64,000 nt of DNA from an uncultured Bacteroidia bacterium (lineage in GTDB: Bacteria > CAIWAD01 > BS150m-G50), in assembly GCA_964517435.1 (NCBI GenBank), contig CAZFEC010000008.1, positions 10-64,009 on the forward strand, read 5' to 3'. The notes beneath the pieces were generated by a model. That model was not told where the DNA came from. It saw only the letters and a list, made by a program, of their open reading frames with translations, and did no database searches. Position 1 is the stretch's first letter, and the number at the start of each line of letters is the position of its first letter. Shown one piece after another: positions 6,423-49,900 of this stretch. The translations under genes and the position numbers were made by a program.

Positions 6423-6903
6423 GGTGACCCTCTGGAGTTTGATGTTGCCTGTTACAGCGAAAGCGAGCAATTGGTGTAGACAAAAAATCAGCTGATTTTT
6501 TACTTTATATTATAGAATAACGCACACTGGCGTAATCCTGAAGTTGAATTTATGCGTTCCGTTCTGTGTACACAGCTTAGAAACCCAGCGGAGATCTTTC
6601 GTGAAATCAGCACGTTTTATTGCGACTCTGATTTGTGTCTTCCATTAGTCACATCCTTGAGTGATACTGCTCAGGCAACCCCGAACGTGGCTGGAATTGA
6701 AAGTTCTGGAAGTCAATCCTGTAGACAGGTTGAGAATCCGGAGCCGTTCCGCAATTATCCGCAGATGCCCGGATGGCCCAATTACATGGGGTTGTCAACT
6801 TTCTTCCCCATGGAAGAATCCCTCCTGTTCGACATCGCCGCCGCCACTGTTTCCTATCAGCTGCCGAAGTTGCTGTTCATCACATAATTGAAAGTCGCGC
6901 GCC

Positions 6904-20026: not shown

Positions 20027-22189
20027 GTGATATATCGCGTTTTACTCATCGCTTCGCTGCTGCTGCCGGGAACGGCAAGCCTGGCGGCCATGCTGCATGC
20101 AAACATCGTCGACGAAGCGGGGCAGGGCATCCCCGGTGCCAATCTGGTGGTTGTTGGAAGCACCATCGGTACCGCCAGTGATCTGGAGGGTAGAGCCTAT
20201 CTGCACAACCTGCCGCCCGGCACCCATACCATCGAAGTCAGCTGCATCGGCTACGAAACCATAAGTGTTGAATACACCCTGAATGCCCCCGACATCCTGG
20301 AACCGGTTCTGGTGCTGAAGTCCACCGTGCTGGATCTGGAGGAGGTGGAGGTCAGCGGTCAGGCGCCGGACGGCCTCGATGTCCGCGGCACCCGCACCGT
20401 CGAGCGGATCTCGGGCGCTGATCTGCAGGCCGCTGCCGGCGGCGGCGGTGCCCTGGAGATAATCGGTGAAAGCAGCGGCGTGGATACGAAACCGTGCGGT
20501 CTCTGCGGGTCTTCCGGGGTTGGACTGCAGGGATTGGACCCCTCCTACACCGAGGTGCAGGTGGACGGGCTGGCTTTGCTCAGCGGCGTCGGTTCGCTCT
20601 ACGGCATGGAATCGATCCGAACGCAGGGACTGGCCGCGGTCGAACTGCAGCGGGGCAGCACCAATCCCGCCCAGGGCGGCAGTGCCATCGCCGGCAGCGT
20701 CAATCTGCAGAGTTCCCAGGTCGCGGAAACCGATACCCTGCAGTTGCATTTCGCGCTGGGTGACGGTTATCGTCATGAAACCGGCCTCACCATCGAGCGG
20801 CACCTGCTCCTGCCCACCCGGCTCGATCTAAACTGGTCGGCCGATCCGCTACGCCTGGATCGCGACGGCGACCGGCTTACGGACACTCCGCAACAGGGCC
20901 GGCTGCAGGGTCGCTTGGACCAGCGGGCGCGGATCCGCGACTCGCAGTGGAACTGGTCCCTGCGGGCGCTGGATGAAGCGCGTTTCGCCGGCGATGTTGA
21001 CTGGGAGACGAGCGATCGCGGCAGCGCGGCGGTCTACGGACGCGACATCCGGATCAAACGTCTGGAGGCTGTCCTGCACGGGAAATGGCGGGATGGCGGC
21101 GGCCGGGACTGGAAGCTGTCGCAGGCCTGGGTGGAGCACCGGCAGGACTCCTGGTACGGATCCACCGCCTTCGACGCGCAACAGCAGCGCGGCCTGTTCA
21201 AACTGGAGTCGGCGCTGAACGCGCTGGGTGGGCGGCACCGGCTGGAAACCGGCTACACCTGGGACCGCTACGATGACAATCTGAACCTGACGGAGGCGAC
21301 CGACCGCCTGGACCGGATTCCCCACTTTTTCTACGGACACGCCCGGCAGCTGGGATCCCAACTGGCGATCGACGGCGGTTTTCGCCTCGAGTACCATGCC
21401 GAGGATGGCCTGGTGCCGCTATTGCGCGGTGCCCTGCGCTGGCAATGGCACCCACAGTTCAGTATGCAGCTGGGCGCCGGACAGGCTTTCCGGCAGATCA
21501 CGCTGTTCAGTCTGGATAAGGCCGTTCACGCCGGTTTCGATGGTGTAACCCTGGCCCATGCGCTGAAACCGGAACGCTCCTTTGCTTTGAACTACGCGCT
21601 GAACTGGGAACAGGTGGGGCTGGCCGCCAGGTATCGCCTCAACCTGGGACTGTTCGCGACCGAATTCCGGGACAAGGCGATCCTGGCTTACACCGACGAG
21701 AACGGTATTGTGGAATACTCCAATGCGCAGGAAGCCTGGAGTCGCGGTTTCACCCTGGCCAAGGACTTCGCCTGGGTGAGCGGCTGGCACAGCCGGCTCA
21801 ACTACAGCTGGGCGCGCGTGCGCTATCTCCAGGACGGCAGCTGGCACGAGGAGCACATGGTGAACCGCTGGACCGCATCGGCACAGCTGGACTACGCTTT
21901 CCAGGCCGCGCAGGCGAGCGCCGGATTGAAGTGGAAATCCTTCGGGCCGCAGAAGCTGCCCGCCGGCAGGTCCCGCTCGGAATCCCCCGTCTGGCATACC
22001 CTGGATCTGACCCTGGCCAAGCGGTTCCTGAACTGGCAGGTTGGTTTCGATGTCGAGAACCTGCTGGATTGGACCCAACCAGATTCTCCCTTTATCCACA
22101 ACGAAGATGGGGAACTGATCGATTCGGCGTTGATCTACGGTCCGTTGATCGGACGGCGGCTGCGTCTCCGGCTCAATCTCGGCTGGTAA
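20027..22189 (+). CDS. TonB-dependent outer membrane receptor with N-terminal carboxypeptidase-regulatory-like domain
   Basis: GTG start with AGGA Shine-Dalgarno. Signal peptide, CarbopepD_reg-like N-terminal domain, plug, beta-barrel with a C-terminal aromatic residue (NLGW). Confidence 0.8.
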   Translation: MIYRVLLIASLLLPGTASLAAMLHANIVDEAGQGIPGANLVVVGSTIGTASDLEGRAYLHNLPPGTHTIEVSCIGYETISVEYTLNAPDILEPVLVLKSTVLDLEEVEVSGQAPDGLDVRGTRTVERISGADLQAAAGGGGALEIIGESSGVDTKPCGLCGSSGVGLQGLDPSYTEVQVDGLALLSGVGSLYGMESIRTQGLAAVELQRGSTNPAQGGSAIAGSVNLQSSQVAETDTLQLHFALGDGYRHETGLTIERHLLLPTRLDLNWSADPLRLDRDGDRLTDTPQQGRLQGRLDQRARIRDSQWNWSLRALDEARFAGDVDWETSDRGSAAVYGRDIRIKRLEAVLHGKWRDGGGRDWKLSQAWVEHRQDSWYGSTAFDAQQQRGLFKLESALNALGGRHRLETGYTWDRYDDNLNLTEATDRLDRIPHFFYGHARQLGSQLAIDGGFRLEYHAEDGLVPLLRGALRWQWHPQFSMQLGAGQAFRQITLFSLDKAVHAGFDGVTLAHALKPERSFALNYALNWEQVGLAARYRLNLGLFATEFRDKAILAYTDENGIVEYSNAQEAWSRGFTLAKDFAWVSGWHSRLNYSWARVRYLQDGSWHEEHMVNRWTASAQLDYAFQAAQASAGLKWKSFGPQKLPAGRSRSESPVWHTLDLTLAKRFLNWQVGFDVENLLDWTQPDSPFIHNEDGELIDSALIYGPLIGRRLRLRLNLGW

Positions 22190-28262: not shown

Positions 28263-28443
28263 AATCCCGCCGCGGCATTTCTAAGCTTGTCTCAAAAGCC
28301 CGGAATCACTACATTGCCAGTGTAGGCAGATGTTCAGATTTCCTCTCCCCTGGGCTCAATAAACAAAAATAATCGTTTTAACAACTAAAATATGCGCCAC
28401 AAGCGCTAATAGGGCGACTCGCGTTCGCCGGGAGGGACTCTTG

Positions 28444-29787
28444 ATGCAGGTACCGGAGCTGAAATACTACGGACCAAACGATCTGCAGCGGTTGCCGCAG
28501 CTGCAAAAACTGCCCCGGTCTGAAGTGCTGGCGATGCAGGCCGTCGCGCAGATATTTCCGTTCCGGACCAACAGTTATGTGGTGGAAAACCTGATCGACT
28601 GGGATGATATTCCGGACGATCCGATGTTTCGCCTCACCTTCCCGCATCGTGATATGCTGCCGGCGGTAACCTTGCGACGCCTGGTCAATCTGCTGACGGA
28701 GGGAGTCGCCGGGTCGGTCATCCAACGCTATGCCAACGAAATCCGCAGCCAGCTGCATCCCCATCCGGAAGGGCAGAAAGAGTATAATGTCCCGTTTCTC
28801 GACGGACAGCCGGTGCAGGGCGCTCAACACAAATACAGAGAAACACTGCTGGTTTTCCCCTCTGCCGGTCAGAGTTGCCACGCCTTCTGTACATTCTGTT
28901 TCCGCTGGCCGCAATTTGTTGGTGTGATCGATTGGCGTTTCGCCACTCGCGAACATGGTCTCTATCTGGATTACCTCCGGCGTCACCGGGAGATCACCGA
29001 TGTCCTCCTCACCGGCGGCGACCCGATGACCATGAACGCCAGACAGCTGTCACTCTATGTCAAACCGCTGCTCGGGCCCGGTTTCGAACATGTACAGACC
29101 ATCCGTATCGGCACCAAAGCACTCACATACTGGCCTTACCGTTATCTGACCGACAGCGATGCCGACGATCTGCTGCGACTGTTCGAGAGTGTCGGCACCG
29201 CCGGTAAACACCTGGCCGTCATGACCCATTTCTGTCACTGGAAAGCTCTGCAACCCCCCGCCGCCCAGTCCGCGATTCAGCGTCTGCGCTCCGCGGGGGT
29301 GGAGATCCGTAGTCAATCGCCGCTGGTCCGCCATATCAACGACACCCCGGTGGTCTGGATCAAGCTGTGGAAGCTGCTGGTGCGTTACGGGTGCATACCG
29401 TACTACATGTTTGTACAACGGCAGACCGGTCCGCATGATTATTTCAAGGTCCCGTTGCGGCGCTGTCTGGAGATCTACCGGCGGGCGGTGCAATCGGTCT
29501 CCGGCCTGAGCCGTACCGCGCGGGGGCCGGTGATGTCGGCGCTGCCCGGCAAGGTATGTATCGACGGTATCGCCGAGGTGAACGGCGAGCGGGTTTTCGT
29601 GCTCTCCTTCCTGCAGGGACGCAATCCGGCCTGGTGCGGGCGGCCTTTCTTCGCGAAGTACAGCGACACCGCCACCTGGCTGACCGACCTGGAGCCGGCA
29701 AGCGGTCAAAAGGAGTTTTTCTATCAACCGGAGTTGCGGGAAATTCTGACCCGAAAGGCGGCTCTGAAAGCCGGCATGACGCTCTGA
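28444..29787 (+). CDS. KamA-family radical SAM protein (lysine 2,3-aminomutase-like)
   Basis: CHAFCTFCFRW (CxxxCxxC) and KamA-like length and layout. ATG 28444 has GGGAGGG at 7 nt. Confidence 0.75.
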   Translation: MQVPELKYYGPNDLQRLPQLQKLPRSEVLAMQAVAQIFPFRTNSYVVENLIDWDDIPDDPMFRLTFPHRDMLPAVTLRRLVNLLTEGVAGSVIQRYANEIRSQLHPHPEGQKEYNVPFLDGQPVQGAQHKYRETLLVFPSAGQSCHAFCTFCFRWPQFVGVIDWRFATREHGLYLDYLRRHREITDVLLTGGDPMTMNARQLSLYVKPLLGPGFEHVQTIRIGTKALTYWPYRYLTDSDADDLLRLFESVGTAGKHLAVMTHFCHWKALQPPAAQSAIQRLRSAGVEIRSQSPLVRHINDTPVVWIKLWKLLVRYGCIPYYMFVQRQTGPHDYFKVPLRRCLEIYRRAVQSVSGLSRTARGPVMSALPGKVCIDGIAEVNGERVFVLSFLQGRNPAWCGRPFFAKYSDTATWLTDLEPASGQKEFFYQPELREILTRKAALKAGMTL

Positions 29788-30762: not shown

Positions 30763-31230
30763 ATGGAAAGCGTGAGAATCGAGCCGGCGACAGTCGCCGA
30801 TCTGGATCGCGATCTGGAGCGGATCACGGAGCTGATACGGGAGCTGTACGCTGCGATGACGGAACCGCCTTCGGGTGATGCTGAGGATATTCACGCCAAC
30901 TGCCGCGTTCTGCTCGACGATCCCGCATACCGGCTGCTGATCGCCAGGACGGGGGAGCGGCTGATAGGTCTGGTCAACTTCACGACACGGCGTACGCTCA
31001 GCCATACACGCCCTTCGGCACTGATCGACGAGCTGATCGTTACCGCTGAGTATCGCGGACGGGGGGTGGGGGAGCAGCTGATCGCGGCTGTGGCCAGCCT
31101 CTGCCGGGAGTTGGGTTGTGAGGAGTTGGAAGTCAGCACCGAGCTGAGCAACCACGCCGCGCGTGAGTTCTACCGGAAATGCGGTTTCGACGAGGAAGCG
31201 GTGCTTCTGGAGCTGCAGCTCGACAATTGA
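30763..31230 (+). CDS. GNAT family N-acetyltransferase
   Basis: ATG 30763 with GGAG at 7 nt; motif A YRGRGVGEQLI. Confidence 0.75.
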   Translation: MESVRIEPATVADLDRDLERITELIRELYAAMTEPPSGDAEDIHANCRVLLDDPAYRLLIARTGERLIGLVNFTTRRTLSHTRPSALIDELIVTAEYRGRGVGEQLIAAVASLCRELGCEELEVSTELSNHAAREFYRKCGFDEEAVLLELQLDN

Positions 31231-31242
31231 ACCAGGCCTGGT

Positions 31243-32289
31243 TCAAGCGACCGCGATACCCTCACCGTCGGTCACCTCACCCACCACGGCGCAGAGATGA
31301 CCCGCCGCTTCGAACCGTTCCTGCAACTTCTCCAGCTGCTCCGACGGCACCGCCGCCAGCAGGCCACCGGAGGTCTCCGGCGTGAAGAGCAGCATCCGTT
31401 TTTCCTCGCCGATATTCGCGGCAAATTCCACCTGCGGTTCGAAGCAGGTCTGGTTGTGACAGGATCCAGCCGGGAAGAACCAGTCCGCCGCGTAGTCGTG
31501 CGTCCCCGGCAGCAACGGCAGGCGATCAAAGTGCAGATTGAGACGGACACCGCTGCCGTCGGCCAGCTCCAGTCCATGCCCGAGCAGGCTGAAACCGGTG
31601 ACGTCGGTGCAGCAGATAACACCCGCTTCGCGCAGGAGGCGGGCGGCATCGCGGTTAAGCTGCTGCATGGATGTCACCGCGTCCGCCAGGTGTTCCGGCA
31701 GGGCGGCGTCTCCCTTCGCAGCGGTGGTGATAAGTCCGGTCCCCAGTGGTTTGGTCAGCAGCAGCCGGTCGCCGGAACGGGCGCCGTTGTTGGTGAACAG
31801 CCCCTCCGGATGCACGAGACCCATCACCGCCAGTCCGTATTTCGGTTCCGGGTCGCACACGGTGTGCCCCCCCGCCAGTACACCCCCCGCTTCGGCGACC
31901 TTGTCCGCTCCGCCCCGGAGGATCGCCTGCATGATCTCCGGATCGAGATCGGAGGGGAAACCGCAGATGTTCAACGCCAGCACCACTTCGCCCCCCATGG
32001 CGTAGACATCGCTCATGGCGTTGGCGGCGGCGATGCTGCCGTACTCGTAGGGATCATCCACCACCGGTGTGAAGAAATCGAGGGTTTGTATCACGGCCGT
32101 ATTGTCGTCAATGCGATACACCGCCGCGTCGTCACCCTCGGCCAGCCCGACCAGCAGAGCGGGGTGATCGCCGGCCGGGAATCGCTCCACCATCGGCTTG
32201 AGTACTTCCGCCAGAACCTCCGGCGCCATCTTGGAGGCTCATCCGGCTGCCGTGGTGAGCGAAGTCAACCGTACTTTCTTACTGGTCAT
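31243..32289 (-). CDS. selD: Selenide, water dikinase SelD, selenocysteine-containing (in-frame UGA at 32239..32241)
   Basis: The 328-aa ORF body is SelD (AIR-synthase-like). Reading upstream on the minus strand gives ATG(32289)-MTSKKVRLTSLTTAAG-TGA-ASKMAPEVLAEVL. This aligns with E. coli SelD 6[25 protein letters not shown], and the TGA falls on catalytic Cys17. GGAGG lies 7 nt upstream of ATG 32289; none precedes the ORF-track start at 32229. Confidence 0.85.
32214..32240 (-). promoter_or_regulatory. Candidate SECIS-like hairpin at/after the selD UGA
   Basis: mRNA GAGCCUCC-AAGAUGGCGCC-GGAGGUUC, an 8-bp stem with one G·U, starting within the UGA. Confidence 0.35.
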
Positions 32290-32343
32290 TGTACATCCTC
32301 CGTACCGGGTGTGCATCCATCTGCAACCGGCAGCGTTACTCCC

Positions 32344-32574
32344 TCAAGGGACGTCATGACAGGCACCGATATCCAGGTTGCCTTGAAGCAGGATCTCCTG
32401 CGCCAGCTTCCGGTCCTCGAGCTTCACCCGCACGCAGACGCCGCAATCGGAACTCAGGTGACGCGGGACCGGGATCAGGCGGCACTCGCAACCAGCCCGT
32501 TTCAACAGCCGCTCTCCCTTGAGGGCGTGGCTGGTGGTCGGTACCAGAAAAACCGTATATTTGTTTTCAGTCAT
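32344..32574 (-). CDS. DUF3343 (putative Se/S carrier-like) protein
   Basis: Start at ATG 32574 (MTENKYTVFLVPTTSHALKGERLLKRAGCECRLIPVP). Family is typically linked to selD/yedE. Confidence 0.65.
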   Translation of the reverse strand: MTENKYTVFLVPTTSHALKGERLLKRAGCECRLIPVPRHLSSDCGVCVRVKLEDRKLAQEILLQGNLDIGACHDVP

Positions 32575-32605
32575 CAACTCTCCCGGGGCTGGCGGAATTC
32601 CCGCC

Positions 32606-33763
32606 TCAATCGTTCCTCTCCGCCGCCGCAACCTCTGCGACCGCCGCCAGCGTGGTTTCGATCTCCCCCGCCGTCGTGAAAACACCGGGGCTCAGGCGCA
32701 CGGTGCCGGCGGGAAAGGTGCCAAGCGTGCGGTGCGAAGCGGGAGTACAATGTAAACCGACCCGGCACAGAATACCATGCTCCTCTTCCAGCCGCAGGCC
32801 GGTGGTGGAAGGGAGCTGATCCGCGATGGTGAAAGAGACCGCGCAGGTACGCTGTTCCGCCCGCGCCGGACCGTAGGCCGTAACGCCCGGAATCTCCCGC
32901 AATCCCTTCTGCAGTCGGTTCACCAGATCCGCTTCCCGCTGCTGTAGCTGTGCGATTCCCTGCCCCCGCAGCCAGTCGAGCGCCGCGCCCAAGCCCGCCA
33001 GGCCGGGTGCGTTGCGGGTGCCGCTTTCGTAGCGGTCCGGCAGCTGATCCGGCTGCGACTCCCGTTCCGACCAGCTGCCGGTGCCCCCGCGTGTCAGCGG
33101 CTGCAGACGTTCACAGTCAACCCGCTCGCCGATCACCAGACCACCGGTGCCGGACGGTCCCAGCAAACCCTTGTGCCCGGTAAACGCCAGCAGATCGATC
33201 CGATCCTGCTGTATATCGACCGGCAGGACCCCGGCACTCTGAGCGGCGTCGACCAGCAGCAGTAGATCGTGCTCCCGCGCGAAACGGCCGACGGCGGCAA
33301 CCGGCTGCACGGTCCCGATGATGTTGGACGCGTGGTTGAGTGCGATCAGCACCGTGTTCCTGCGCAGCGCCGGCGCCAGGTCAGCCGGATCCAGTTCGCC
33401 GGTAGCGGAGCAGGGCAGGACCGTCAGTTCGACACCCAGCTCCTCCAGCCGGCGCAGCGGACGCATCACGGAATTGTGTTCCATGCTGCTGGTAATCACA
33501 TGGTCGCCGGGACGGAGATAGCCGGCCAGCGCCAGGTTGAGACTTTCGGTGGCGTTCTGGGTGAACACCACCCGCAACGGGTCCGGTTGGCTGAACAGAC
33601 CGGCCACCGCTTCCCGCACGGCATAGACACCACGACCCGCTTCCAGAGACAACCGGTGTCCGGAGCGGCCCGGGTTGCCGCCGATAGCGAGCATCTCGAT
33701 CATCGCCGTCGCCACGCCGTCCGGCTTCGGCCAGGAGCTGGCGGCGTTGTCGAGGTAGATCAC
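32606..33763 (-). CDS. Cysteine desulfurase / selenocysteine lyase family (class V aminotransferase)
   Basis: GTG start overlapping the upstream stop (GTGA). Class-V aminotransferase fold with a PLP Lys region (FTGHKGLLGPSGTGGL). Confidence 0.8.
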   Translation of the reverse strand: MIYLDNAASSWPKPDGVATAMIEMLAIGGNPGRSGHRLSLEAGRGVYAVREAVAGLFSQPDPLRVVFTQNATESLNLALAGYLRPGDHVITSSMEHNSVMRPLRRLEELGVELTVLPCSATGELDPADLAPALRRNTVLIALNHASNIIGTVQPVAAVGRFAREHDLLLLVDAAQSAGVLPVDIQQDRIDLLAFTGHKGLLGPSGTGGLVIGERVDCERLQPLTRGGTGSWSERESQPDQLPDRYESGTRNAPGLAGLGAALDWLRGQGIAQLQQREADLVNRLQKGLREIPGVTAYGPARAEQRTCAVSFTIADQLPSTTGLRLEEEHGILCRVGLHCTPASHRTLGTFPAGTVRLSPGVFTTAGEIETTLAAVAEVAAAERND

Positions 33764-33969
33764 TCTTCTATCGTTAATCGGAAACCATCCTCTCTGTTAT
33801 CCACCTTCACTCTGTATCCCCGGCTCTCGGCCAGGCGTCGCACATTCTCGCGGGAGGCGACCGAATCGACGATCACCTCCACGAGCAGATCACCCGCCTC
33901 CAGCGCTCGCTTGGTCAGCAGCACCGGCTGGGGACAGGAAAGCCCGCTGGCATCCACTATTTGCGTCAT
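33760..33969 (-). CDS. TusA/YedF-like sulfur(selenium)transferase
   Basis: 69 aa with the CPxP motif (GLSCPQPVLLTKRAL); GAGAGGA Shine-Dalgarno. Confidence 0.75.
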   Translation of the reverse strand: MTQIVDASGLSCPQPVLLTKRALEAGDLLVEVIVDSVASRENVRRLAESRGYRVKVDNREDGFRLTIEE

Positions 33970-34020
33970 TCTATCGTCCTCTCAAACAGATTTGTATTGA
34001 TTTCACAGCGGTTGCACCGT

Positions 34021-35148
34021 TCAGACTCGTTCGCGCATCGTAAACCCGATCACCACGCAGACAACCAGGCCCAGCAGTACGGCGATCATGCCGGCCGTAT
34101 TGATACCACCGACCTGGACGACTCCCGCCACCAGCTTGTCCGGTCTGGCGGCCAGCGCGAAGTTATGCGCGAAAGCGGCGCCGGTGAGCATGCCCAGCAC
34201 GAAAATGCCGGCATCGCCGTCACCCTCTCCGCTCAGGAACAGCTGGCGACCGGGGCAGCCGCCGGCCAGCAGGAAGGCCAGCCCCGACAGCACCATCCCC
34301 AGGAAATTCCAGAAGTAGTTGGAATGGGCTACCGGTTGGGCCGCAACGCCGAAGCCCACCTGACCGAGCAAAAGGTTGGTGATGAAAGCGACCACGGCCA
34401 GCGTGATGACACCGGTCAGCAAATGAAAATCGCGGATCAGGATAGAGTCGCGGAAGGCGCCCATGGTGCAGAAACGGGTGCGCTGCGCCAGGAAACCTAT
34501 CAGCAGCCCCGCACCGAGTGAAATCAGCAGCGGTGCGTGCATTGCGCCGGGACCTTTCAGGCTGAAGAAAACGGCACCACCCTCGCTGAATTGCGGGCGC
34601 AGGATCACCAGCAGCAACAGACCGACCATCAGGAACGGCATCACCCAGCCGGCGGCGGCTTTGGTTCTGAACGCCCGCCCCAGGCTGTAGCCACGGCGGA
34701 GAAACAGGGTGCCAACCCAGATGCCGGCGCTGAGTCCCGCCAGACCGATCACGGCGTTCAGATCGCCGCCCGCCAGGCGCAGCAGGGCGCGCCAGGGACA
34801 ACCGAGAAATGCCAGTGCGCCGATCATGGCGAAGCCGCCCAGCAGAAAGCGGATCAGCGGTGCCGAACCGCCGCGGGCCCGGAACTCCCGGAAGAGCAGG
34901 GCGGCGACCAGCGAGCCCAGCACGAAGCCGACCAGCTCCGGCCGGATGTACTGGACGACGCCCGCCCGGTGCAGTCCCAGCGCGCCGGCGATATCCCGTT
35001 CGAAACAAGCGACGCAGACACCCATGTTGGGCGGATTACCCAGCTTCTGGAGCAGCGGCGCGAGCACGCCGATCACGGCTCCGGCCAGGATAATACCCCA
35101 GCGTGAGGCAAAGAAAGCGGTTAGATTTTCGGATCGATTCGTAGGCAT
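34021..35148 (-). CDS. YedE/YeeE family membrane protein (putative selenium/sulfur transporter)
   Basis: Polytopic membrane protein with two conserved Cys-containing half-motifs (GVCVACFERD and RFCTMGAFRD). Start set at ATG 35148. Confidence 0.75.
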   Translation of the reverse strand: MPTNRSENLTAFFASRWGIILAGAVIGVLAPLLQKLGNPPNMGVCVACFERDIAGALGLHRAGVVQYIRPELVGFVLGSLVAALLFREFRARGGSAPLIRFLLGGFAMIGALAFLGCPWRALLRLAGGDLNAVIGLAGLSAGIWVGTLFLRRGYSLGRAFRTKAAAGWVMPFLMVGLLLLVILRPQFSEGGAVFFSLKGPGAMHAPLLISLGAGLLIGFLAQRTRFCTMGAFRDSILIRDFHLLTGVITLAVVAFITNLLLGQVGFGVAAQPVAHSNYFWNFLGMVLSGLAFLLAGGCPGRQLFLSGEGDGDAGIFVLGMLTGAAFAHNFALAARPDKLVAGVVQVGGINTAGMIAVLLGLVVCVVIGFTMRERV

Positions 35149-35679
35149 GTAGACCTCCGGTTGGGCGCGGCCCTTCGCGCTGACCGGAGATCTCCGGCGG
35201 TCAGAGCGGGAAGGCGGCGCGTGGTTTGGCAATTGAGAACCTGACCGGTTCCCGGCACGCGCTTCAGATTTGGTGTGACATCAGGGTGTGATACATTGCT
35301 CTTTCCTGGTTGGCTGCGCAGAGCACCATGGTTACCGGGCGATTGCGCGGGTTTCTTAACGGTAAAAAGATTGAACAACCGGTTCTACCGATCAAGCATT
35401 ATCTCATTCACACAAAGCGGATCCGGCGATCGGCGATATCCTCTGGACCTGGCCGGATCGGCTGGTATTGCTGACTTCCATCATCCATATACCGTTCCAT
35501 CCAGTAACTGCCGGGTTGCTAGTTGAAGGTGGGTTAGATACCTTCTCAATTGAGTTGATCGACAAATGTGAGACGTAGACAGTGAAGAAAAAGCAGGGAA
35601 GCAGGGAGCGGATGTCACGCGGTTCGGAACCTTTCGTTCGAAGTGAAGGCCGGGTACCGCCTGTAAGCCGACAGGGACA

Positions 35680-41186: not shown

Positions 41187-41441
41187 ATGGAGCATTTCAC
41201 CAAAATCGTTGTCCTCGATAATGAAGTGCAGGCGCAGATCCTGGTCTCGCTGCTGGAGGAGGCGGGCATCCCGCACCGGCTGCGCAGTTACCGCGACTCT
41301 GTTCTGGACGGACTCTTCCAGGGTATGAAAGGATGGGGGCATGTCGATGCGCCGGAGCGCTTTCGCACGGAGATAATGGCGTTGCTGGAACGGGTGAATG
41401 AAGCAGGCAGAACCGCCGGCGATATTGAAGAAGTCGATTGA
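41187..41441 (+). CDS. DUF2007-like putative signal-transducing protein
   Basis: 84 aa; family assigned by recalled resemblance only. Confidence 0.4.
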   Translation: MEHFTKIVVLDNEVQAQILVSLLEEAGIPHRLRSYRDSVLDGLFQGMKGWGHVDAPERFRTEIMALLERVNEAGRTAGDIEEVD

Positions 41442-41478
41442 CCGCGACATCATCTTGAGGTTACCCCATCACCTGACA

Positions 41479-42432
41479 ATGTTACAAATGAGAGGAGACC
41501 AACGGACCGGCAGGCTGGCGGCCGGTCTCCTGGTGCTGATCGCAATAATCGCGTCTCAACTGATGGCAGGAGAGGAAAGCGGATTGAAATTACGGGAACT
41601 GACACCGGAAGAGGAGCGGGTCATACTGCACAAGGGCACCGAACCGGCTTTCTCCGGGGAGTATAACGACCACTTCACCACGGGGACCTACAGCTGCAGG
41701 CATTGCGGCGCCGCTCTCTACCGCTCGAGCGATAAATTCGCGTCGCATTGCGGGTGGCCCAGTTTTGACGACGCGCTCCCGGACGCTGTGGTCAGCCAGC
41801 CTGACGCCGACGGCAAGCGTACTGAGATTAGCTGCGGTAACTGCGGCGCGCACCTGGGACATGTTTTCAGCGGTGAGGAATATACCGACAAGAACATCCG
41901 GCACTGTGTCAATTCCATTTCGCTGGAGTTTCAGGCCGCACCGAAGCCAGCTACCGAGGTGGCCGTTTTCGCGGGCGGTTGTTTCTGGGGCGTGGAGTTT
42001 TACTTCCAGGTCGAACCGGGAGTGCTGTCGACCCGGGTCGGCTATACCGGCGGCGAACTCGAACAGCCGACCTACCAGAAGGTCTGTACGGGAGCGACCG
42101 GTCACGCCGAGGCGATCGAAATCACCTACGATCCCGCTTTGACCGATTTCGAGACGCTGGCGCGACTCTTTTTCGAGATCCACGATCCCACCCAGATCGA
42201 TCGCCAGGGCCCGGATATCGGTAATCAGTATCGTTCGGCGATCTTCTGCCAAAACGCGGAGCAGAAACGGATCGCACAGGGGTTGATCAAACTGCTGGAA
42301 ACCGCGGGCTTCCGGGTCGCGACGAAATTGCAGCCTGCCGGCACCTTCTGGGAAGCGGAGAATTACCACCAGGACTACTTCAAGACCACCGGCAAACGAC
42401 CCTACTGCCATGAGCGCACCAAGCGCTTCTAA
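41479..42432 (+). CDS. msrAB: Bifunctional peptide-methionine sulfoxide reductase MsrB-MsrA, secreted
   Basis: Signal peptide. MsrB zinc motifs (CRHCGAAL...CGNCGAHLGHVF) and catalytic RHCVNS, then MsrA GGCFWG. The catalytic residues are Cys, not Sec. Confidence 0.85.
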   Translation: MLQMRGDQRTGRLAAGLLVLIAIIASQLMAGEESGLKLRELTPEEERVILHKGTEPAFSGEYNDHFTTGTYSCRHCGAALYRSSDKFASHCGWPSFDDALPDAVVSQPDADGKRTEISCGNCGAHLGHVFSGEEYTDKNIRHCVNSISLEFQAAPKPATEVAVFAGGCFWGVEFYFQVEPGVLSTRVGYTGGELEQPTYQKVCTGATGHAEAIEITYDPALTDFETLARLFFEIHDPTQIDRQGPDIGNQYRSAIFCQNAEQKRIAQGLIKLLETAGFRVATKLQPAGTFWEAENYHQDYFKTTGKRPYCHERTKRF

Positions 42433-46953: not shown

Positions 46954-49900
46954 TCACTTCAACAGCATCATCTTGCGGGTCTGGTTGAGGTGCTCGCTCT
47001 GCACCCTCAGGAAGTAGACACCGCTGGCCAGGTTCCCCGTCTCCCGGCTGTCGAAAACCAGCACCTGGTGACCCGCCGGCAGGTAGCCGTCCCAGAGTTG
47101 CGCCACGCGCCGGCCCAGCACATCGTAAACGGTTGCCCGCAGGTGTTCGCCCGTCACCAGGGTTAGGTCGAAGCTGGTAACCGGATTGAAGGGATTGGGA
47201 TAGGGGTGGGAAAGCGTCCAGACATCGGGTGTCGTCAGCGGCTCACGCGTGCCGGTCAGCAGCAGGAAACGGCCGCCGTGGTTCACCTCTGTGTGAAGGT
47301 TCCCCGACTCGCTGTCACGATATGTATCACACCAGACCGTATCTCCCGCTTCCACACGGTAAATGCCATAGTGGCACTCCTCCGGTGCGCCTGCCGGTAC
47401 CGTAAAGGTGATGCGCACCGCGCCCGGCAGCTGTAACGGCAGCAGGTCGAATCCGGCGGTGCCGTCTGGAGTGAGATCGTGTATCACATAGCGGGTAGCG
47501 ACGGGAATATCCCGGCACAAACGCAATCGGTATTCATCCCCCGGTCCGGGCAGCAGATCACCGGCCGCCTGCATGTAGTTGCTGCTGATCAGCAGCGTAT
47601 CCTGTGTCACGTTACCCGCCAGATCGACGGCGGTTAAACCGATGACCACGTCGCCGGTACCGATGAAGAGATAACTCCCCAGATAGAGATCATAGGCATC
47701 CGGCTCGGTTCCGCTCTGGATCAACTCGAAAGTGACCGAACCGCTGCTCGCTGAAGCCGCCAGGGGCGGGGTAAGCGGCTCATCCACCATCACCAGCAGA
47801 TCGAGGTACTCATTCACGGCCGGATTGGGCAGAATCCCCGGGCTCAACGTCGGGGGGATGTTCTCCAGCGACACCACCAAGAGCGGGCCGCTGTCGCTGT
47901 TGCCGTCGTTGTCGAGTACGGTCACTTCCGCGACGGTGTTGTCGTGGAAGAGTGAATCCGGCTCGATCACCAGACAGTCGGCGTCCGGCAGATAGGTGAT
48001 GGCGACGGAATCGATCACCGCGATCTCCCATTCGAGGTACTCATCGGGGGAGTCGGGATCGTAGACATAACCGGAGAGATTCCGGAGCGTGTCGCTGCTG
48101 CCGGCGCGCAGGGTGACGGGCGGCAGCGTGTAGAGCTGCGGGGCGGCGCCGGCTGTCACCTGAAAGCGCCACCAGGCCGCAGCGGTATCACCATCCGGAT
48201 CCTCCACCGCGAAGAGGAGACTGTCACTGCCGGTGATCATCAGCGAGTTGAATGTGACACAACGTGATACAGTGTCCAGAATCGCTTCCACCAGGTTCCC
48301 GCCGCTCCAACTCCAATCGAGACTGGTGACGGGATCATCGTGATCGTAGACATAATCGTCCAGCGGCCAGGGACCGGAGGTGGTCAGCGTGGACAACGTC
48401 AACTCCGGGAAATCGAATATGAGCGGTACGCCGGTCGTGTCGATCACCAGCAGACGGCAGTCGTCGCCGGTCAGGTTGGAATCAGGATCGAAACAGTAGA
48501 AGGCGATGTCGGTAAGGCTGCCGGGCGTGAGGGGCGCGGTAACCTGAACCAGATGGCTGGCCGGGTCGACCGACACCTGGAAGGGCGCGGGATCGGTGAA
48601 CGCCCAGGTCATCTGGTCCGGATCGTGATCGAAATCCCAGACATGGTCGTCCAGATCGAGGTGGTTGTCCACCTCACCCGGGAGCAGTAGCAGATCGGGC
48701 AGGGCGGCTGCCTGCGGCAGTCCATTGTAGAGGAGAACCGCCGTAACCGCCGCGGTCGCGCTGTTCTGATCGGGATCGGTAACGGTGAACTGCAGCTCCT
48801 CCCAGCCCTGTGTCGCCGGCGACGCGCTGAGCGTAGCCACATGTGTCACACTGTTGATCTGAACCGAGACCAGGTCGCCGCTGCCGGCGGACCAGCTCAG
48901 TTGCGAATCGGCGTGATCGGCGTCGGCAACATAATCATCCAGATAAAGCAGTTCGCCGGTTCCGTTGTGTAACACCTGGGCCGGGATGACGGCCAATACC
49001 GGCGGCGCGCTGGCAACCTGCACGATCAGCGTGTCCTGGTCCTGCAGCGGTTCCGGATCGCTGACCGTCAGCAGATAGGGAAAAGACTGGCCGATCAGCG
49101 AGACGGCGGTGGTGAAGAAGCGGAGTGTTCCCTCGTAGGTATCCACCACGGTCGAGATGCTGTCATGCGCGCCCGCCAGGGTCCAGATCATCTCCTGCCA
49201 GTCGTGATCGGGGTCGTAGACCAGGTCCGGCAGCTGGAGGACCAGCTCGCTGCCGGGGTGCAGCGGGAACAGGAGCGGTTCGGTAAGCAATGGTGCGTCG
49301 TTGACCGGCGTTACCTCCAGCGGTATAAAAGAAGTATCCGCCAGGCCCAGGGGATCGCTGACGATAAAAGTGACGCTGTCGCTGCCGCTCCAGTTCAGGG
49401 GCGGGGTCAGTCGCGCCCGGTGCGACACCGGATCAATCGCGAGCGTCACCAGGCTCTGTTCCGGCACCGCGTAGGTCAACCAGCCGGCGGCATGGTCGTT
49501 GTCGGTCACGAAGTCATCCAGGACGAGCGAGCTGTCGACGTCATCTTCCGCCCAGCTTACCAGCGGCAGCGGTTCCGCAACCTGGGGCGCGTCGTCACAC
49601 AGCACGGCCAGCGTGTCCACGGCGGCGGTCAAGTCGGGCGCCGTAGCTTGAATCGCCACCTCCAGCCAGGCCGGCGTTACCGGCAGGCGGTTGAAGATGA
49701 ACAGGAAGGCCTCGCTGTCTACCCGCACCGTGTCGATGGTGGCCGAGTTACCGCCGGCCAGCACCTCATAGCTGATGACGAATTCCGAATCGGGACAGAA
49801 GAACGCCTCCAGGTGATCGTAGAGGTTCAGGGTGTCGCAGGGCTGGAAAGTCGTCAGCTGCAGATCGGGCAGGGGCGGGTAGAAAGCGAAACCGGCGATT

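What the first reader, a model, noticed from the sequence alone, without database searches (positions are those of the whole stretch)
31243..35148. Compact selenium-utilization operon: yedE - tusA/yedF-like - cysteine desulfurase/SCL - DUF3343 - selD(Sec)
Five co-directional minus-strand genes are packed tightly. They overlap by GTGA, or sit 31-54 nt apart. The operon combines a putative selenium transporter (YedE), a CPxP sulfur/selenium carrier, a class-V desulfurase/selenocysteine lyase, a DUF3343 protein and the Sec-containing SelD. The comparative-genomics linkage of YedE/YedF/DUF3343 to SelD is established. Finding all of them with a lyase in a single operon makes this a useful marker locus for the Se trait in this lineage.
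Basis: partly seen in the sequence, partly recalled or inferred. Interest (0 to 1): 0.55.

Follow-up and report, generated by a model that had tools for sequence, protein, structure and literature searches.

The report
Selenium operon with selenocysteine-sensing leader
The five-gene selenium-uptake and activation operon is real but of a known, common type; the new part is a short upstream reading frame with a selenocysteine codon and hairpin that probably lets the cell tune the operon to its selenium supply.

Summary
Five minus-strand genes lie at 31243-35148: yedE, a 69-aa TusA-like CPxP protein, a class-V PLP desulfurase of the EF2568/SclA family, DUF3343, and selD with an in-frame UGA at the catalytic position. 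Spacings are 51, -4 (GTGA), 31 and 54 nt. All pass curated HMM cut-offs, except that the TusA-like protein is not a full YedF and the desulfurase is below the SclA cut-off.

The arrangement is ordinary. The same gene order occurs in 14 other species-level genomes of 80 fetched, and the gene linkage was published in 2015. No other selenium gene is in the window.

The unexpected part lies just outside the coordinates, in the yedE leader (35307-35149). It holds a Shine-Dalgarno-like site, AUG, 10 codons, UGA, a SECIS-like hairpin (GGU loop), 20 more codons, then a stop beside an anti-SD/SD switch. The closest relative (82% YedE identity) keeps this layout while the peptide diverges.

Two unrelated leader families in other phyla share the logic: 32 Chloroflexota-type instances with covarying terminator and antiterminator, and 6 Desulfobacterota-type instances. 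I read these as leader-peptide attenuators that sense selenocysteine decoding. I found no prior description. This is untested experimentally.

The parts
34021..35148 (-). yedE: 375-aa membrane protein, putative selenium transporter of the YedE family
   Evidence: TIGR04112 scores 477 bits against a cut-off of 200. PF04143 matches. There is distant similarity to the thiosulfate transporter YeeE/TsuA, PDB 6LEO/8J4C. Motifs invariant across 128 homologues: GNPxNMGxCVAC, FLGCPWR, RFCT, LAGGCPGRQL.
33760..33969 (-). tusA-like 69-aa CPxP carrier (GLSCPQPV). Not a full-length YedF.
   Evidence: PF01206 scores 61 bits. It matches only positions 1-63 of the 194 in TIGR03527, at 56 bits, below the cut-off of 110. 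The CPxP motif is conserved in 133 homologues. Nearest solved structure is 3HZ7.
32606..33763 (-). Class-V PLP cysteine desulfurase / selenocysteine-lyase family protein (EF2568/SclA family). Its GTG start overlaps the upstream stop as GTGA.
   Evidence: TIGR01977 scores 440 bits against 377. SclA NF040779 scores 360 bits against 525, so that cut-off is not met. The PLP lysine in GHK (K198) and the catalytic Cys in RVGLHC align to SufS/CsdB structures. EHN, GHK and GLHC are invariant in 104 homologues.
32344..32574 (-). DUF3343 / Se_S_carrier, a 76-aa protein with the conserved SSDCG cysteine
   Evidence: PF11823 scores 75 bits. The motif PvPRhxSSdCG is conserved in 42 homologues. No solved structure matches by sequence.
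31243..32289 (-). selD, selenophosphate synthetase (348 aa) with selenocysteine at residue 17 (TGA 32241-32239); motif AAG-U-ASK
   Evidence: TIGR00476 scores 371 bits. U17 and K20 align with Cys17 and Lys20 of E. coli SelD (3U0O) and with the Sec site of Aquifex SelD (2YYE). The codon is TGA in 42 of 44 cluster-linked homologues and TGT in 2.
32210..32241 (-). Candidate SECIS of selD, with two mutually exclusive hairpins: GAGCCUCC/GGAGGUUC (11-nt loop), or GCCGGA-GGU-UCUGGC starting 14 nt after the UGA
   Evidence: The two folds are nearly isoenergetic and not better than shuffles. Relatives carry hairpins after the UGA whose stems differ in sequence but stay paired in single-sequence folds. 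There is no Rfam match. Status: candidate only.
35201..35307 (-). Leader reading frame. SD-like AGGAAAG 35307-35301; AUG 35296-35294; 10 codons (MYHTLMSHQI); UGA 35266-35264; 20 codons; stop UGA 35203-35201.
   Evidence: Read directly from the sequence. It is the only place on either strand of the 64-kb window that fits the generic pattern: start, short ORF, TGA, spacer, hairpin with [AG]G[UG] loop, open frame. In related loci the background rate is 0.0015 per 340 nt, against 33 of 144 upstream regions of selenium operons. The layout is conserved in L166 while the peptide diverges.
35235..35253 (-). SECIS-like hairpin of the leader: GGGAACC-GGUCA-GGUUCUC, 10 nt after the UGA, nested in the helix GCGCGUG (35262-35256) / CACGCGC (35223-35217)
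   Evidence: Present in the minimum-free-energy fold. L166 has GGGAACC-GGUAC-GGUUCCC with the same spacing, and its outer helix is kept with different bases (GCGUGC/GCACGC). Covariance models of the Chloroflexota-type leader do not match it.
35154..35197 (-). Putative expression platform. Palindrome CCGGAG-AU-CUCCGG (35197-35184), whose 3' arm is complementary to the yedE Shine-Dalgarno region ACCGGAGGUC (35161-35152).
   Evidence: The free-RNA fold pairs GAUCUCCGGU with the SD, giving P(unpaired) 0.00. The element is conserved in L166. Ribosome-masking folds give only weak differences. Inferred, not shown.
31227..31246 (.). Perfect 20-nt palindrome TTGAACCAGG/CCTGGTTCAA. It overlaps the selD stop and the end of the convergent acetyltransferase gene. 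Possible bidirectional terminator without a U-tract.
   Evidence: Read directly from the sequence. Not found by the terminator scan. Not followed up.

Best explanation
This is a selenium-assimilation operon. The inferred pathway runs as follows. YedE, working with the adjacent TusA-like CPxP protein, brings a selenium species across the membrane, by analogy with the YeeE/YeeD (TsuA/TsuB) thiosulfate importer. The class-V PLP enzyme of the EF2568/SclA family mobilises selenium as an enzyme-bound perselenide, from selenocysteine or from the carrier. DUF3343, with its single conserved cysteine, shuttles it onward. SelD, itself a selenoprotein, converts it with ATP into selenophosphate for Sec-tRNA synthesis. 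The gene identities are shown by curated HMMs; the pathway order is inferred from what is known of these families.

The operon is probably placed under feedback by its own product pathway. Its leader encodes a short peptide whose 11th codon is UGA, followed by a SECIS-like hairpin. When Sec-tRNA(Sec)-SelB is plentiful, the ribosome reads through to a stop 20 codons later, next to an anti-SD hairpin. That favours sequestration of the yedE ribosome-binding site and turns the operon down. When selenium is scarce, the ribosome halts at the UGA, a different fold forms, and the operon is expressed.

Relatives in Chloroflexota use the same logic with a terminator/antiterminator output. Relatives in Desulfobacterota use it with an anti-SD output. 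My confidence in the operon identity is about 0.9. My confidence that the leader is a functional Sec-decoding sensor in this window is about 0.6-0.7. The direction of regulation is less certain.
For: Operon. The HMM scores are above curated cut-offs. Catalytic residues are present: U17/K20 in SelD, K198 and the RxGxHC cysteine in the desulfurase, CPxP in TusA, SSDCG in DUF3343, and the cysteine motifs of YedE. Gene order is conserved across 80 genomes. The co-occurrence is published (PMC5322559). SclA of the same family prefers selenocysteine (bioRxiv 10.1101/2020.02.07.939272). Solved YeeE-YeeD structures exist.

Leader in the window. It is the single hit of the generic pattern in 128 kb. In related loci the background is 13 hits in 2.96 Mb, against 33 of 144 upstream regions. 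L166 (82% YedE identity) has the same layout. It keeps the start position, the 10 codons, CAR-AUC-UGA-AGCG, the spacing, the hairpin with a GGU loop and a G-U to G-C change, the outer helix with different bases, the 20 codons, the stop in CCGCUCUGACC, and the anti-SD and SD. Codons 2-8 are not conserved.

Leader families elsewhere. Model R1 finds 32 instances, always in front of the first selenium gene, whether that is yedE, csd or selD. The UGA is invariant in 31 of 31. The start codon lies 9 codons upstream in about 21 of 31. The leader stop falls at a conserved alignment column and is TGA 20 times, TAG 6 times and TAA 5 times. The terminator, the antiterminator and the SECIS-like hairpin all show compensatory changes and beat shuffled and slid controls. 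A second, unrelated family has the same parts.

Physiology. yedE mRNA rises 5.3 log2-fold on selenium starvation in Methanococcus maripaludis (PMC11097638).
Against: No experiment links YedE to selenium transport. A yedE deletion in M. maripaludis gave no clear phenotype. The desulfurase is below the SclA cut-off, and it has Asn where SclA has His100. The covariance models of the Chloroflexota-type leader (R1, R2) do not match the window leader at E up to 10. The case for the window therefore rests on a pattern defined partly after seeing it, plus a single diverged relative. The leader fold is not more stable than shuffles (z = -1.25). Ribosome-masking folds change SD accessibility only modestly: 0.22 against 0.13 in the window, and 0.26 against 0.03 in L166. 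The window leader has no U-tract terminator. The SD of the leader frame is weak (AGGAAAG). SelB, SelA and tRNA-Sec were not seen because only 64 kb is available.
Confidence: 0.68

Rival explanations
1. The operon is as described, but the leader frame, UGA and hairpin do not sense selenocysteine. The UGA is an ordinary stop of a 10-codon upstream ORF, or the frame is not translated at all. The hairpins are ordinary 5'-UTR structure or belong to another kind of regulator, such as a protein- or metabolite-binding RNA.
For: R1 and R2 do not match the window leader. The fold z-score is not significant. Only one diverged relative supports the layout. The scan pattern was tuned after inspection. The masking effects are weak.
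Against: In L166, the frame after the UGA stays open for exactly 20 codons and ends at the same conserved stop, while codons 2-8 diverge. The generic pattern is about 150-fold enriched upstream of selenium operons. In the large family, the second stop uses all three stop codons at a conserved column while the first is always UGA. That pattern is hard to explain unless translation continues past the UGA.
Confidence: 0.22
2. The leader hairpin is a SelB-binding decoy that works without translation of a leader peptide. This would resemble the SECIS-like element in the 5' UTR of E. coli selAB (Thanbichler and Boeck 2002, recalled from my own knowledge). SelB bound to it would repress or activate yedE translation according to its charge state.
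For: The hairpin has an apical GGU/GGUU loop, with the GG conserved in 30 of 30 family members. It sits in a 5' UTR of a selenium operon. A precedent exists in E. coli.
Against: A decoy does not need several features that are seen: an invariant UGA at a fixed distance, a start codon with an SD at a fixed 9-11 codons upstream, or an in-frame stop at a conserved column that varies among TGA, TAG and TAA.
Confidence: 0.1
3. The cassette handles sulfur rather than selenium: persulfide or thiosulfate import and trafficking by a YeeE/YedE-family permease, TusA, a cysteine desulfurase and DUF3343. On this view selD is only a neighbour.
For: All four families have sulfur-handling relatives. DUF3343 occurs in organisms lacking SelD (PMC5322559). 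The closest relative lacks selD in the operon. E. coli YedE has been described as a zero-valent sulfur transporter (title of PMC10812762).
Against: The permease matches the selenium-linked YedE equivalog at 477 bits, against 44 and 31 bits for the TsuA models. SelD lies within the cluster in 46 of 80 relatives. YedE is reported as exclusive to selenium-utilising organisms. The leader carries a UGA with a SECIS-like module in front of the operon even where selD is absent (L166).
Confidence: 0.07
4. The short frame encodes a functional small selenopeptide, for example a selenium carrier or sensor peptide, rather than a regulatory leader.
For: The frame has a start, a Sec codon, a SECIS-like hairpin and a stop, as a selenoprotein gene would.
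Against: The peptides of the three leader types share nothing but the Sec. Within the large family, the residues after Sec are dictated by RNA helices (AGWR comes from the hairpin, GGGG from the P1 strand). Between the window and L166 the N-terminal residues are not conserved. NCBIfam has no model for them.
Confidence: 0.04

Closest known systems
Selenium gene clusters described by Lin, Peng, Jiang, ... Zhang 2015 (Genome Biol Evol 7:664; PMC5322559), e.g. Slackia heliotrinireducens Shel_25110-25460
   Same: The same families are clustered: YedE, a SirA/TusA-like protein, a Sec-lyase-family PLP enzyme, DUF3343 and SelD. The functional model proposed there is also the same: transporter, carriers, lyase, SelD.
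   Different: Here the five genes form one compact operon with no selA/selB, LysR_Se or long YedF. The host is a poorly sampled candidate-phylum lineage; its Lon protease is 83% identical to that of a 'Candidatus Delongbacteria' MAG. That paper describes no leader element.
Enterococcus faecalis sclA (EF2568)-selD-xdh locus; SclA selenocysteine lyase
   Same: The PLP enzyme belongs to the same family (TIGR01977, named after EF2568), is group II with RxGxHC, and is encoded next to selD.
   Different: The window protein scores below NCBI's SclA cut-off (360 against 525). It has Asn at the position of SclA His100. E. faecalis has an orphan selD serving a selenium-dependent molybdenum hydroxylase with yqeB/yqeC. 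Here selD is itself a selenoprotein, so the Sec trait is present.
YeeE/YeeD (TsuA/TsuB) thiosulfate uptake system (PDB 6LEO, 8J4C, 8K1R)
   Same: It pairs a membrane protein of the Sulf_transp superfamily, with conserved cysteines, with an adjacent small TusA-like CPxP partner.
   Different: Similarity is only about 30 bits over roughly 100 residues. The substrate there is thiosulfate. No substrate is known for YedE.
Leader-peptide transcription attenuation (trp, his, leu operons of enterobacteria)
   Same: Both have a short translated leader whose ribosome position selects between mutually exclusive helices (1:2, 2:3, 3:4). In the Chloroflexota-type relatives a terminator and an antiterminator both covary.
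   Different: The sensing codon is a single UGA that needs SelB, Sec-tRNA and a SECIS-like hairpin, rather than a run of codons for a standard amino acid. In the window and in the Desulfobacterota type, the output appears to be SD sequestration rather than termination.
SECIS-like element in the E. coli selAB 5' UTR; selenium-dependent translational uncoupling at the fdhF(Sec) UGA in Treponema primitia (PMC3892789)
   Same: Both use Sec-decoding components (SelB/SECIS, or the UGA itself) to couple gene expression to selenium status (for T. primitia; the selAB element is recalled from my own knowledge).
   Different: The selAB element is untranslated and controls the decoding machinery. In T. 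primitia the UGA is inside the selenoprotein gene itself. Here a dedicated leader frame precedes selenium uptake and activation genes.

Membership tests
YedE family putative selenium transporter (TIGR04112) | Full-length match above the curated equivalog cut-off | tested here: met
   477 bits against a cut-off of 200, covering model positions 2-337 of 337
YedE family putative selenium transporter (TIGR04112) | Conserved cysteine-containing motifs of the YeeE/YedE superfamily | tested here: met
   CVAC, GCPWR, RFCT and GGCPG are invariant in 128 homologues
YedE family putative selenium transporter (TIGR04112) | Transport of a selenium species | not testable with these tools
   No experimental proof exists in any organism. 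The M. maripaludis deletion was inconclusive.
YedF (TIGR03527 long form; NF008242 E. coli form) | Match above the curated cut-off over the whole model | tested here: not met
   56 bits against 110, covering only model positions 1-63 of 194. NF008242 scores 21 bits against 79. It is therefore filed as TusA-like, not YedF.
TusA/SirA-like sulfur carrier (PF01206) | Pfam gathering score and the CPxP active-site motif | tested here: met
   61 bits against 28.6. GLSCPQPV is conserved in 133 homologues.
Cysteine desulfurase family TIGR01977 (EF2568 clade) | Match above the curated cut-off; PLP lysine; catalytic cysteine in RxGxHC | tested here: met
   440 bits against 377. GHK198 and RVGLHC align to SufS/CsdB structures and are invariant in 104 homologues.
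Selenocysteine lyase SclA (NF040779) | Match above the curated cut-off | tested here: not met
   360 bits against 525
Selenocysteine lyase SclA (NF040779) | His100 (equivalent of human SCL Asp146) next to the conserved His | tested here: not met
   The window and at least 95% of 104 relatives have E-H-N. The role of His100 in SclA is itself unsettled.
Selenocysteine lyase SclA (NF040779) | [quoted passage not shown] | not testable with these tools
   Needs enzyme kinetics
DUF3343 / Se_S_carrier (PF11823) | Pfam gathering score and the single conserved cysteine | tested here: met
   75 bits against 25. The SSDCG motif is conserved.
Selenophosphate synthetase SelD (TIGR00476), selenoprotein form | Equivalog score; Sec/Cys17 and Lys20 in the N-terminal glycine-rich loop | tested here: met
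   371 bits against 125. U17 and K20 align to E. coli C17 and K20. The codon is UGA in 42 of 44 cluster-linked homologues.
Selenophosphate synthetase SelD (TIGR00476), selenoprotein form | Functional SECIS downstream of the UGA | tested here: inconclusive
   There are two alternative hairpins, one with a GGU loop 14 nt after the UGA. Neither is better than shuffles, and there is no Rfam match.
Ribosome-mediated leader-peptide attenuator | Short translated ORF with start and SD in the leader, holding the regulatory codon | tested here: met
   AGGAAAG-N4-AUG, 10 codons, UGA. The position is conserved in L166. It is present in 31 and 6 members of the two other leader families. Translation itself is not shown.
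Ribosome-mediated leader-peptide attenuator | [quoted passage not shown] | tested here: inconclusive
   In the window, the anti-SD:SD helix versus the palindrome hairpin is seen only in single-sequence folds, with weak masking effects. In Chloroflexota-type relatives, both terminator and antiterminator are supported by covariation.
Ribosome-mediated leader-peptide attenuator | Intrinsic terminator (GC hairpin plus U-tract) before the first gene | tested here: not met
   None is present in the window leader. One is present in the Chloroflexota-type family.
Chloroflexota-type yedE leader (models R1/R2 built here) | Significant covariance-model match | tested here: not met
   There is no hit in the window leader at E up to 10 with filters off. 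The window leader is an analogue, not a detectable homologue.
Bacterial SECIS element (descriptive bSECIS model of Zhang and Gladyshev 2005, recalled from my own knowledge) | Hairpin shortly after the UGA with G in the first positions of the apical loop, 16-37 nt from the UGA | tested here: met
   The leader has UGA, 10 nt, a 7-bp stem and loop GGUCA. The first loop G follows 17 nt after the UGA (10-nt spacer plus 7-nt stem arm). SelB binding is not testable here.

The most novel reading that the evidence does not exclude
Bacteria of at least three phyla measure their selenium status by translating a leader peptide with a single selenocysteine codon. The codon is backed by a SECIS hairpin, and the leader lies in front of the yedE/csd/selD selenium-assimilation operon. 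Read-through or halting at the UGA switches the mRNA between alternative folds. In Chloroflexota the folds are a terminator and an antiterminator. In Desulfobacterota, and in the window's Delongbacteria-like lineage, the switch is anti-SD pairing with the SD. This would be a ribosome-mediated attenuator for a non-standard amino acid. It would also be the first cis-regulatory evidence that the YedE cassette is under selenium control.
Probability: 0.6. Interest if true: 0.85.

Novelty: new variant of a known kind. Interest (0 to 1): 0.62.

Why it matters
The operon by itself adds one more member to a known gene neighbourhood, in a barely sampled candidate phylum. The leader matters more. No selenium-specific transporter has been proven in any organism. 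How bacteria sense selenium to regulate its uptake is also largely unknown. A Sec-codon leader in front of yedE operons, found in three unrelated designs, ties the YedE cassette to selenium status through sequence logic alone. It gives a simple handle for testing both questions: reporter fusions with UGA and hairpin mutants, with and without selenite. It would extend classical attenuation to the 21st amino acid. It would also supply a compact natural selenium-responsive switch. Finally, it warns annotators that the 5' UTRs of these operons hold short selenoprotein-like frames that gene callers miss.

Tried and rejected
(1) My first tblastn of selD used a start that was off by one base. It gave spurious 30-40% out-of-frame matches. 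This was corrected.

(2) Rfam found only a tRNA-Leu in the window (gathering thresholds). It found nothing meaningful in the operon and most of its leader at E up to 10 (window 31100-35500). It found nothing in eight related loci or in a Chloroflexota-type leader.

(3) ARAGORN found no tRNA-Sec in the window.

(4) A codon-usage scan for other in-frame-UGA genes in the window was uninformative. Antisense frames score high at this G+C content, and the scan did not even recover selD.

(5) Covariance models R1 (whole Chloroflexota-type leader) and R2 (start, UGA and hairpin only) did not match the window leader. I therefore rejected homology between the window leader and that family.

(6) The metagenome scan with YedE found no relative above about 75% identity. 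The protein search then found one at 82%.

(7) Exact look-ups failed for two window proteins, probably because their starts were called differently.

(8) The cluster-member look-up returned no organism names. The lineage was inferred instead from Lon protease hits and from the T9SS and TonB-like domains.

(9) The sigma-70 and terminator scans gave counts no higher than shuffled sequence.

(10) I considered that the conserved leader in relatives might be a tRNA-Sec, a known riboswitch (for example TPP), or the 3' end of an upstream selenoprotein gene. I rejected these because Rfam has no match, and because the open frame upstream of the UGA is only about 10-40 codons with a start about 9 codons before it.

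(11) NCBIfam has no model for the leader peptides.

(12) Literature searches for a selenocysteine leader peptide or attenuator found nothing relevant in the open-access library.

Full report
**Observation.** On the minus strand of the window there are five tightly packed genes.
- yedE is 34021-35148, with an ATG preceded by GGAGG.
- A 69-aa tusA-like gene is 33760-33969.
- A 385-aa class-V PLP enzyme is 32606-33763. Its GTG start overlaps the preceding TGA as GTGA.
- A 76-aa DUF3343 gene is 32344-32574.
- selD is 31243-32289, with an in-frame TGA at 32241-32239.

Gene calls made by others on the source contig agree, with selD cut at the UGA. The source is an 80.6-kb metagenome scaffold, SUTE22-1 SAMN10231913.

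**Identities.** Curated profile HMMs place each protein.
- YedE: TIGR04112, 477 bits against a cut-off of 200.
- TusA-like protein: PF01206, 61 bits.
- PLP enzyme: TIGR01977 (the EF2568 clade), 440 bits against 377.
- DUF3343: PF11823 (Se_S_carrier), 75 bits.
- SelD: TIGR00476, 371 bits against 125.

Two labels need trimming. The CPxP protein covers only the first third of the long YedF model, at 56 bits against 110, and it does not reach the E. coli YedF model either. It is TusA-like, not YedF. The PLP enzyme scores 360 bits on NCBI's SclA model, whose cut-off is 525. It is a family member of the characterised E. faecalis selenocysteine lyase, not a demonstrated orthologue.

The catalytic residues are in place.
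- SelD residue 17 (the UGA) and Lys20 align with Cys17 and Lys20 of E. coli SelD. The local motif G-U-A-S-K resembles the Aquifex Sec-type enzyme.
- The PLP lysine (GHK198) and the group-II cysteine (RVGLHC) align with SufS/CsdB structures.
- Alignments with 42-133 homologues show these residues, the CPxP motif, the SSDCG cysteine of DUF3343 and four cysteine motifs of YedE to be conserved at 70% or more.

The position that is His100 in SclA is Asn throughout this clade. The role of His100 in specificity is itself unsettled.

**SelD as a selenoprotein.** Among cluster-linked selD homologues, the codon at this position is TGA in 42 of 44 and TGT in 2. Downstream of the window's UGA there are two mutually exclusive hairpins. 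One has a GGU loop starting 14 nt after the UGA. Neither is more stable than shuffled sequence, and Rfam has no match. Relatives carry hairpins after the UGA whose stems differ in sequence but stay paired in single-sequence folds. I treat the SECIS of selD as a candidate only. The window holds no tRNA-Sec, selA, selB, ybbB, yqeB or yqeC. The Sec trait is therefore inferred only from selD itself, and the other selenium traits cannot be assessed from 64 kb.

**How common is the arrangement?** I fetched 80 loci from species-representative genomes using the PLP enzyme as query. They are mostly Anaerolineae and other Chloroflexota, plus Atribacterota and Thermodesulfobacteriota, and are 55-67% identical to the query. 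The exact order yedE-tusA-csd-DUF3343-selD occurs in 14 of them. Many more are truncated or permuted versions, and 46 of 80 have selD within the fetched cluster. The linkage of these families was published in 2015, including clusters with the Sec-lyase family gene (PMC5322559). The finding as written is therefore correct and is a typical new member of a known kind.

**Lineage.** The rest of the window encodes proteins with T9SS sorting tails, a TonB-dependent-receptor-like protein, fucosidases and a sulfatase. Its Lon protease is 83% identical to one from a MAG labelled Candidatus Delongbacteria. The next hits fall to 59% and then to about 50%. The host is thus a poorly sampled candidate-phylum bacterium, not a Chloroflexota member. 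Yet its selenium proteins are 60-79% identical to Chloroflexota ones. That hints at lateral spread of the cassette, but I did not test this.

**The closest relative.** A protein search with YedE found one relative at 82% identity, from a sister sample of the same study (L166-L168). Its operon is yedE-tusA-csd-DUF3343 without selD, and it sits beside a nos gene cluster instead of the window's neighbours. The four-gene core is the stable unit and the selD linkage varies.

**The leader in relatives.** While checking the upstream regions of yedE in the related loci, I saw a long conserved element. An alignment of 14-16 Chloroflexota-type leaders shows the following parts, in order.
- A start codon (ATG, GTG or TTG), usually 9 codons before an invariant UGA, with an SD-like site.
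- The UGA itself. The codon before it varies (ACC, ACG, ACA, AUC, AUU and others).
- A 7-bp hairpin 11-12 nt further on, with a GGUU-type loop. The hairpin has compensatory changes in 6 of 7 pairs, and the position of the second loop G is invariant.
- A frame that stays open for 20-30 codons. It ends at a conserved alignment column with TGA (20), TAG (6) or TAA (5).
- A GC-rich hairpin followed by a U-tract.

The strand just before the UGA pairs with a strand near the end of the short frame. That second strand, together with the sequence before it, can instead pair with the 5' arm of the terminator. Both the terminator (6 of 12 pairs with double changes) and the antiterminator (10 of 19) keep more than 92% of cells paired. 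Slid controls give 32-67%, and no shuffle reaches these values.

A covariance model of this leader finds 32 instances among 165 loci. Each lies directly in front of the first selenium gene, whether that is yedE, csd (L008, L064) or selD (L025, which has two copies).

A second, unrelated leader occurs in six Desulfobacterota-type loci. It has the same parts: SD, start, 11 codons, UGA, a hairpin GAGACCUA-GGU-UAGGUCUC, a frame of 34 codons in the four loci where it was read, and a stop. It also has a strand before the UGA that pairs downstream, and a CCCUCCCUCC anti-SD facing the yedE SD.

A generic pattern scan captures this layout: start, 4-14 codons, TGA, 8-22 nt, a stem of at least 6 bp, an [AG]G[UG] loop, and an open frame of 15-60 codons. 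It hits 33 of 144 upstream regions of selenium operons, against 13 hits in 2.96 Mb of background.

**The leader in the window.** The 540-nt non-coding stretch before yedE contains the single hit of that pattern on either strand of the whole window. Its parts are as follows.
- AGGAAAG at 35307-35301.
- AUG at 35296-35294.
- Ten codons, MYHTLMSHQI.
- UGA at 35266-35264.
- After 10 nt, the hairpin GGGAACC-GGUCA-GGUUCUC (35253-35235), nested in the helix GCGCGUG/CACGCGC.
- Twenty more codons, then a stop at 35203-35201.
- Four bases later, the palindrome CCGGAG-AU-CUCCGG, whose 3' arm is complementary to the yedE SD region ACCGGAGGUC.

The minimum-free-energy fold of the free leader sequesters the SD. 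The covariance models of the Chloroflexota-type leader do not match this region, so it is not a detectable homologue.

The 82%-identical relative L166 has an alignable leader with the same plan. These features are conserved:
- the SD-like site;
- the AUG at the same place, with 10 codons;
- CAR-AUC-UGA-AGCG;
- the same 10-nt spacer;
- the hairpin GGGAACC-GGUAC-GGUUCCC, in which a G-U pair becomes G-C;
- the outer helix, kept with different bases;
- 20 codons;
- the stop within CCGCUCUGACC;
- the anti-SD hairpin and the SD.

Codons 2-8 of the peptide are not conserved: MLNELTVYQI against MYHTLMSHQI. Conservation of frame, length and signals, but not of the peptide, is what a regulatory leader predicts.

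**Mechanism proposed, and what is shown versus inferred.**
- *Shown by sequence analysis:* the gene identities, the conserved order, the UGA in selD, the leader layout and its conservation, and the covariation of alternative helices in the large leader family.
- *Inferred from family knowledge:* YedE with the TusA-like protein imports a selenium species, by analogy with YeeE-YeeD. The PLP enzyme and DUF3343 hand selenium to SelD, as in the Se-delivery role of NifS-like proteins, the SclA data and the 2015 model.
- *Inferred from RNA logic:* the ribosome on the leader reads the UGA as Sec when Sec-tRNA-SelB is available. It then runs on to the stop, covering the strand that would otherwise prevent the off-state fold. 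That off state is a terminator in Chloroflexota, and anti-SD:SD pairing in the other two designs. When selenium is short, the ribosome halts at the UGA and the on-state fold forms.

The direction, induction under selenium shortage, fits the 5.3 log2-fold rise of yedE mRNA in selenium-starved Methanococcus maripaludis.

For the window itself the expression platform is the weakest link. Folding with a ribosome footprint masked gives SD accessibility of 0.22 with the ribosome at the Sec-UGA and 0.13 at the leader stop. In L166 the values are 0.26 and 0.03. These shifts are in the expected direction but small. How long a ribosome would dwell at a UGA in competition with release factor 2 is unknown.

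**Rivals.**
- The leader could be an ordinary upstream ORF with unrelated structure.
- It could be an untranslated SelB decoy like the E. coli selAB 5' UTR element.
- It could encode a small functional selenopeptide.
- The cassette could handle sulfur rather than selenium.

The fixed start-to-UGA distance argues against the first three. So do the invariance of the first stop as UGA and the free choice of stop codon at the second site, and so does the lack of peptide conservation. The YedE equivalog score, the frequent selD linkage and the Sec-codon leader itself argue against the sulfur reading.

**Prior knowledge.** Rfam 15 has no family matching these leaders. NCBIfam has no model for the peptides. 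Full-text searches for a selenocysteine leader peptide, attenuator or upstream ORF returned nothing relevant. The nearest items are selenium-dependent translational uncoupling within the fdhF(Sec) gene of Treponema primitia (PMC3892789) and, from my own knowledge, the selAB SECIS-like element. The search covers open-access papers only, so an earlier description cannot be excluded.

**Verdict.** On their own they describe an ordinary, already understood kind of locus, with interest of about 0.3. The leader raises the interest. It is a conserved selenocysteine-codon reading frame with a SECIS-like hairpin in front of the operon. It is supported in the window by one diverged relative and by a strongly enriched pattern. 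In other phyla it is supported by two independent leader families, one with solid covariation. I rate it a new variant of a known kind, namely leader-peptide attenuation. I put the probability that it works as a Sec-decoding sensor in this window at about 0.6, and overall interest at 0.62.

Noticed in passing
L010:5200-5360, L014:5256-5416, L019:6339-6504, L027:5446-5637 and 28 further matches: A Chloroflexota-type leader of about 160 nt lies in front of selenium operons. It has a short frame with an invariant UGA, a GGUU-loop hairpin, and covarying terminator and antiterminator. Rfam has no match for it.
   Followed up: yes
L066:190-436, L069:6196-6446, L082:6428-6673, L081:102-344, L130:120-355, L068 around 6170-6512: A second, unrelated yedE leader occurs in Desulfobacterota-type loci. 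It has SD, start, 11 codons (MGKxQTPFSLR), UGA, hairpin GAGACCUA-GGU-UAGGUCUC, a frame of 34 codons where read, and a stop. A CCCUCCCUCC anti-SD faces the yedE SD.
   Followed up: partly
L025:5077-5234 and L025:6409-6565: One genome has two copies of the Chloroflexota-type leader, one before selD and one before yedE. This suggests a small regulon.
   Followed up: no
L027:3965-4053: A weak partial match of the leader model (25.9 bits, E about 0.007) lies just upstream of a 420-aa membrane protein (4097-5359) that looks transporter-like by eye. That gene precedes the yedE leader. It may be another regulated transporter or may be chance.
   Followed up: partly
Chloroflexota-type leaders, between the terminator U-tract and the yedE start (e.g. 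L010:5360-5425): A further conserved block, GUUGCCCAC...variable hairpin...CGCGUGGAGA, sits between the terminator and the SD. Its role is unexplained.
   Followed up: no
L006 and L023 leaders: These two leader frames carry a second in-frame UGA: one codon after the conserved UGA in L006, and two codons before it in L023. This could be a variant design or an assembly error.
   Followed up: no
L166:6001-8794 (also L167, L168): The closest relative of the window's cassette lacks selD in the operon and lies next to a nosZ-nosDFYL nitrous-oxide reductase cluster. The cassette therefore sits in different neighbourhoods in related genomes.
   Followed up: partly
window 31227-31246: A perfect 20-nt palindrome, TTGAACCAGGCCTGGTTCAA, spans the selD stop and the end of the convergent acetyltransferase gene. 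It may be a bidirectional terminator without a U-tract.
   Followed up: no
window 46954-54371 (minus strand): Two adjacent giant ORFs (about 1200 and 1300 aa) carry weak Por_Secre_tail (T9SS) matches. A CarboxypepD_reg/Plug receptor-like gene lies at 20027-22189. The Lon protease is 83% identical to that of a 'Candidatus Delongbacteria' MAG. Together these point to a poorly sampled FCB-type candidate phylum.
   Followed up: partly
window 28441-29787 (plus strand): A 448-aa ORF has a CxxxCxxC motif (CHAFCTFCF) suggestive of a radical-SAM aminomutase-like enzyme. It has no Pfam match at E up to 0.01.
   Followed up: no
window 41398-42432 (plus strand): An MsrB-MsrA fusion (SelR plus PMSR domains) is encoded as an uninterrupted ORF. 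It therefore has no in-frame UGA, although both families have selenoprotein forms elsewhere.
   Followed up: partly
selD homologues in L004-L082: The active-site motif in this clade is G-U-A-[A/S/G]-K rather than the enterobacterial G-C-G-C-K. The second cysteine of the E. coli motif is absent.
   Followed up: no
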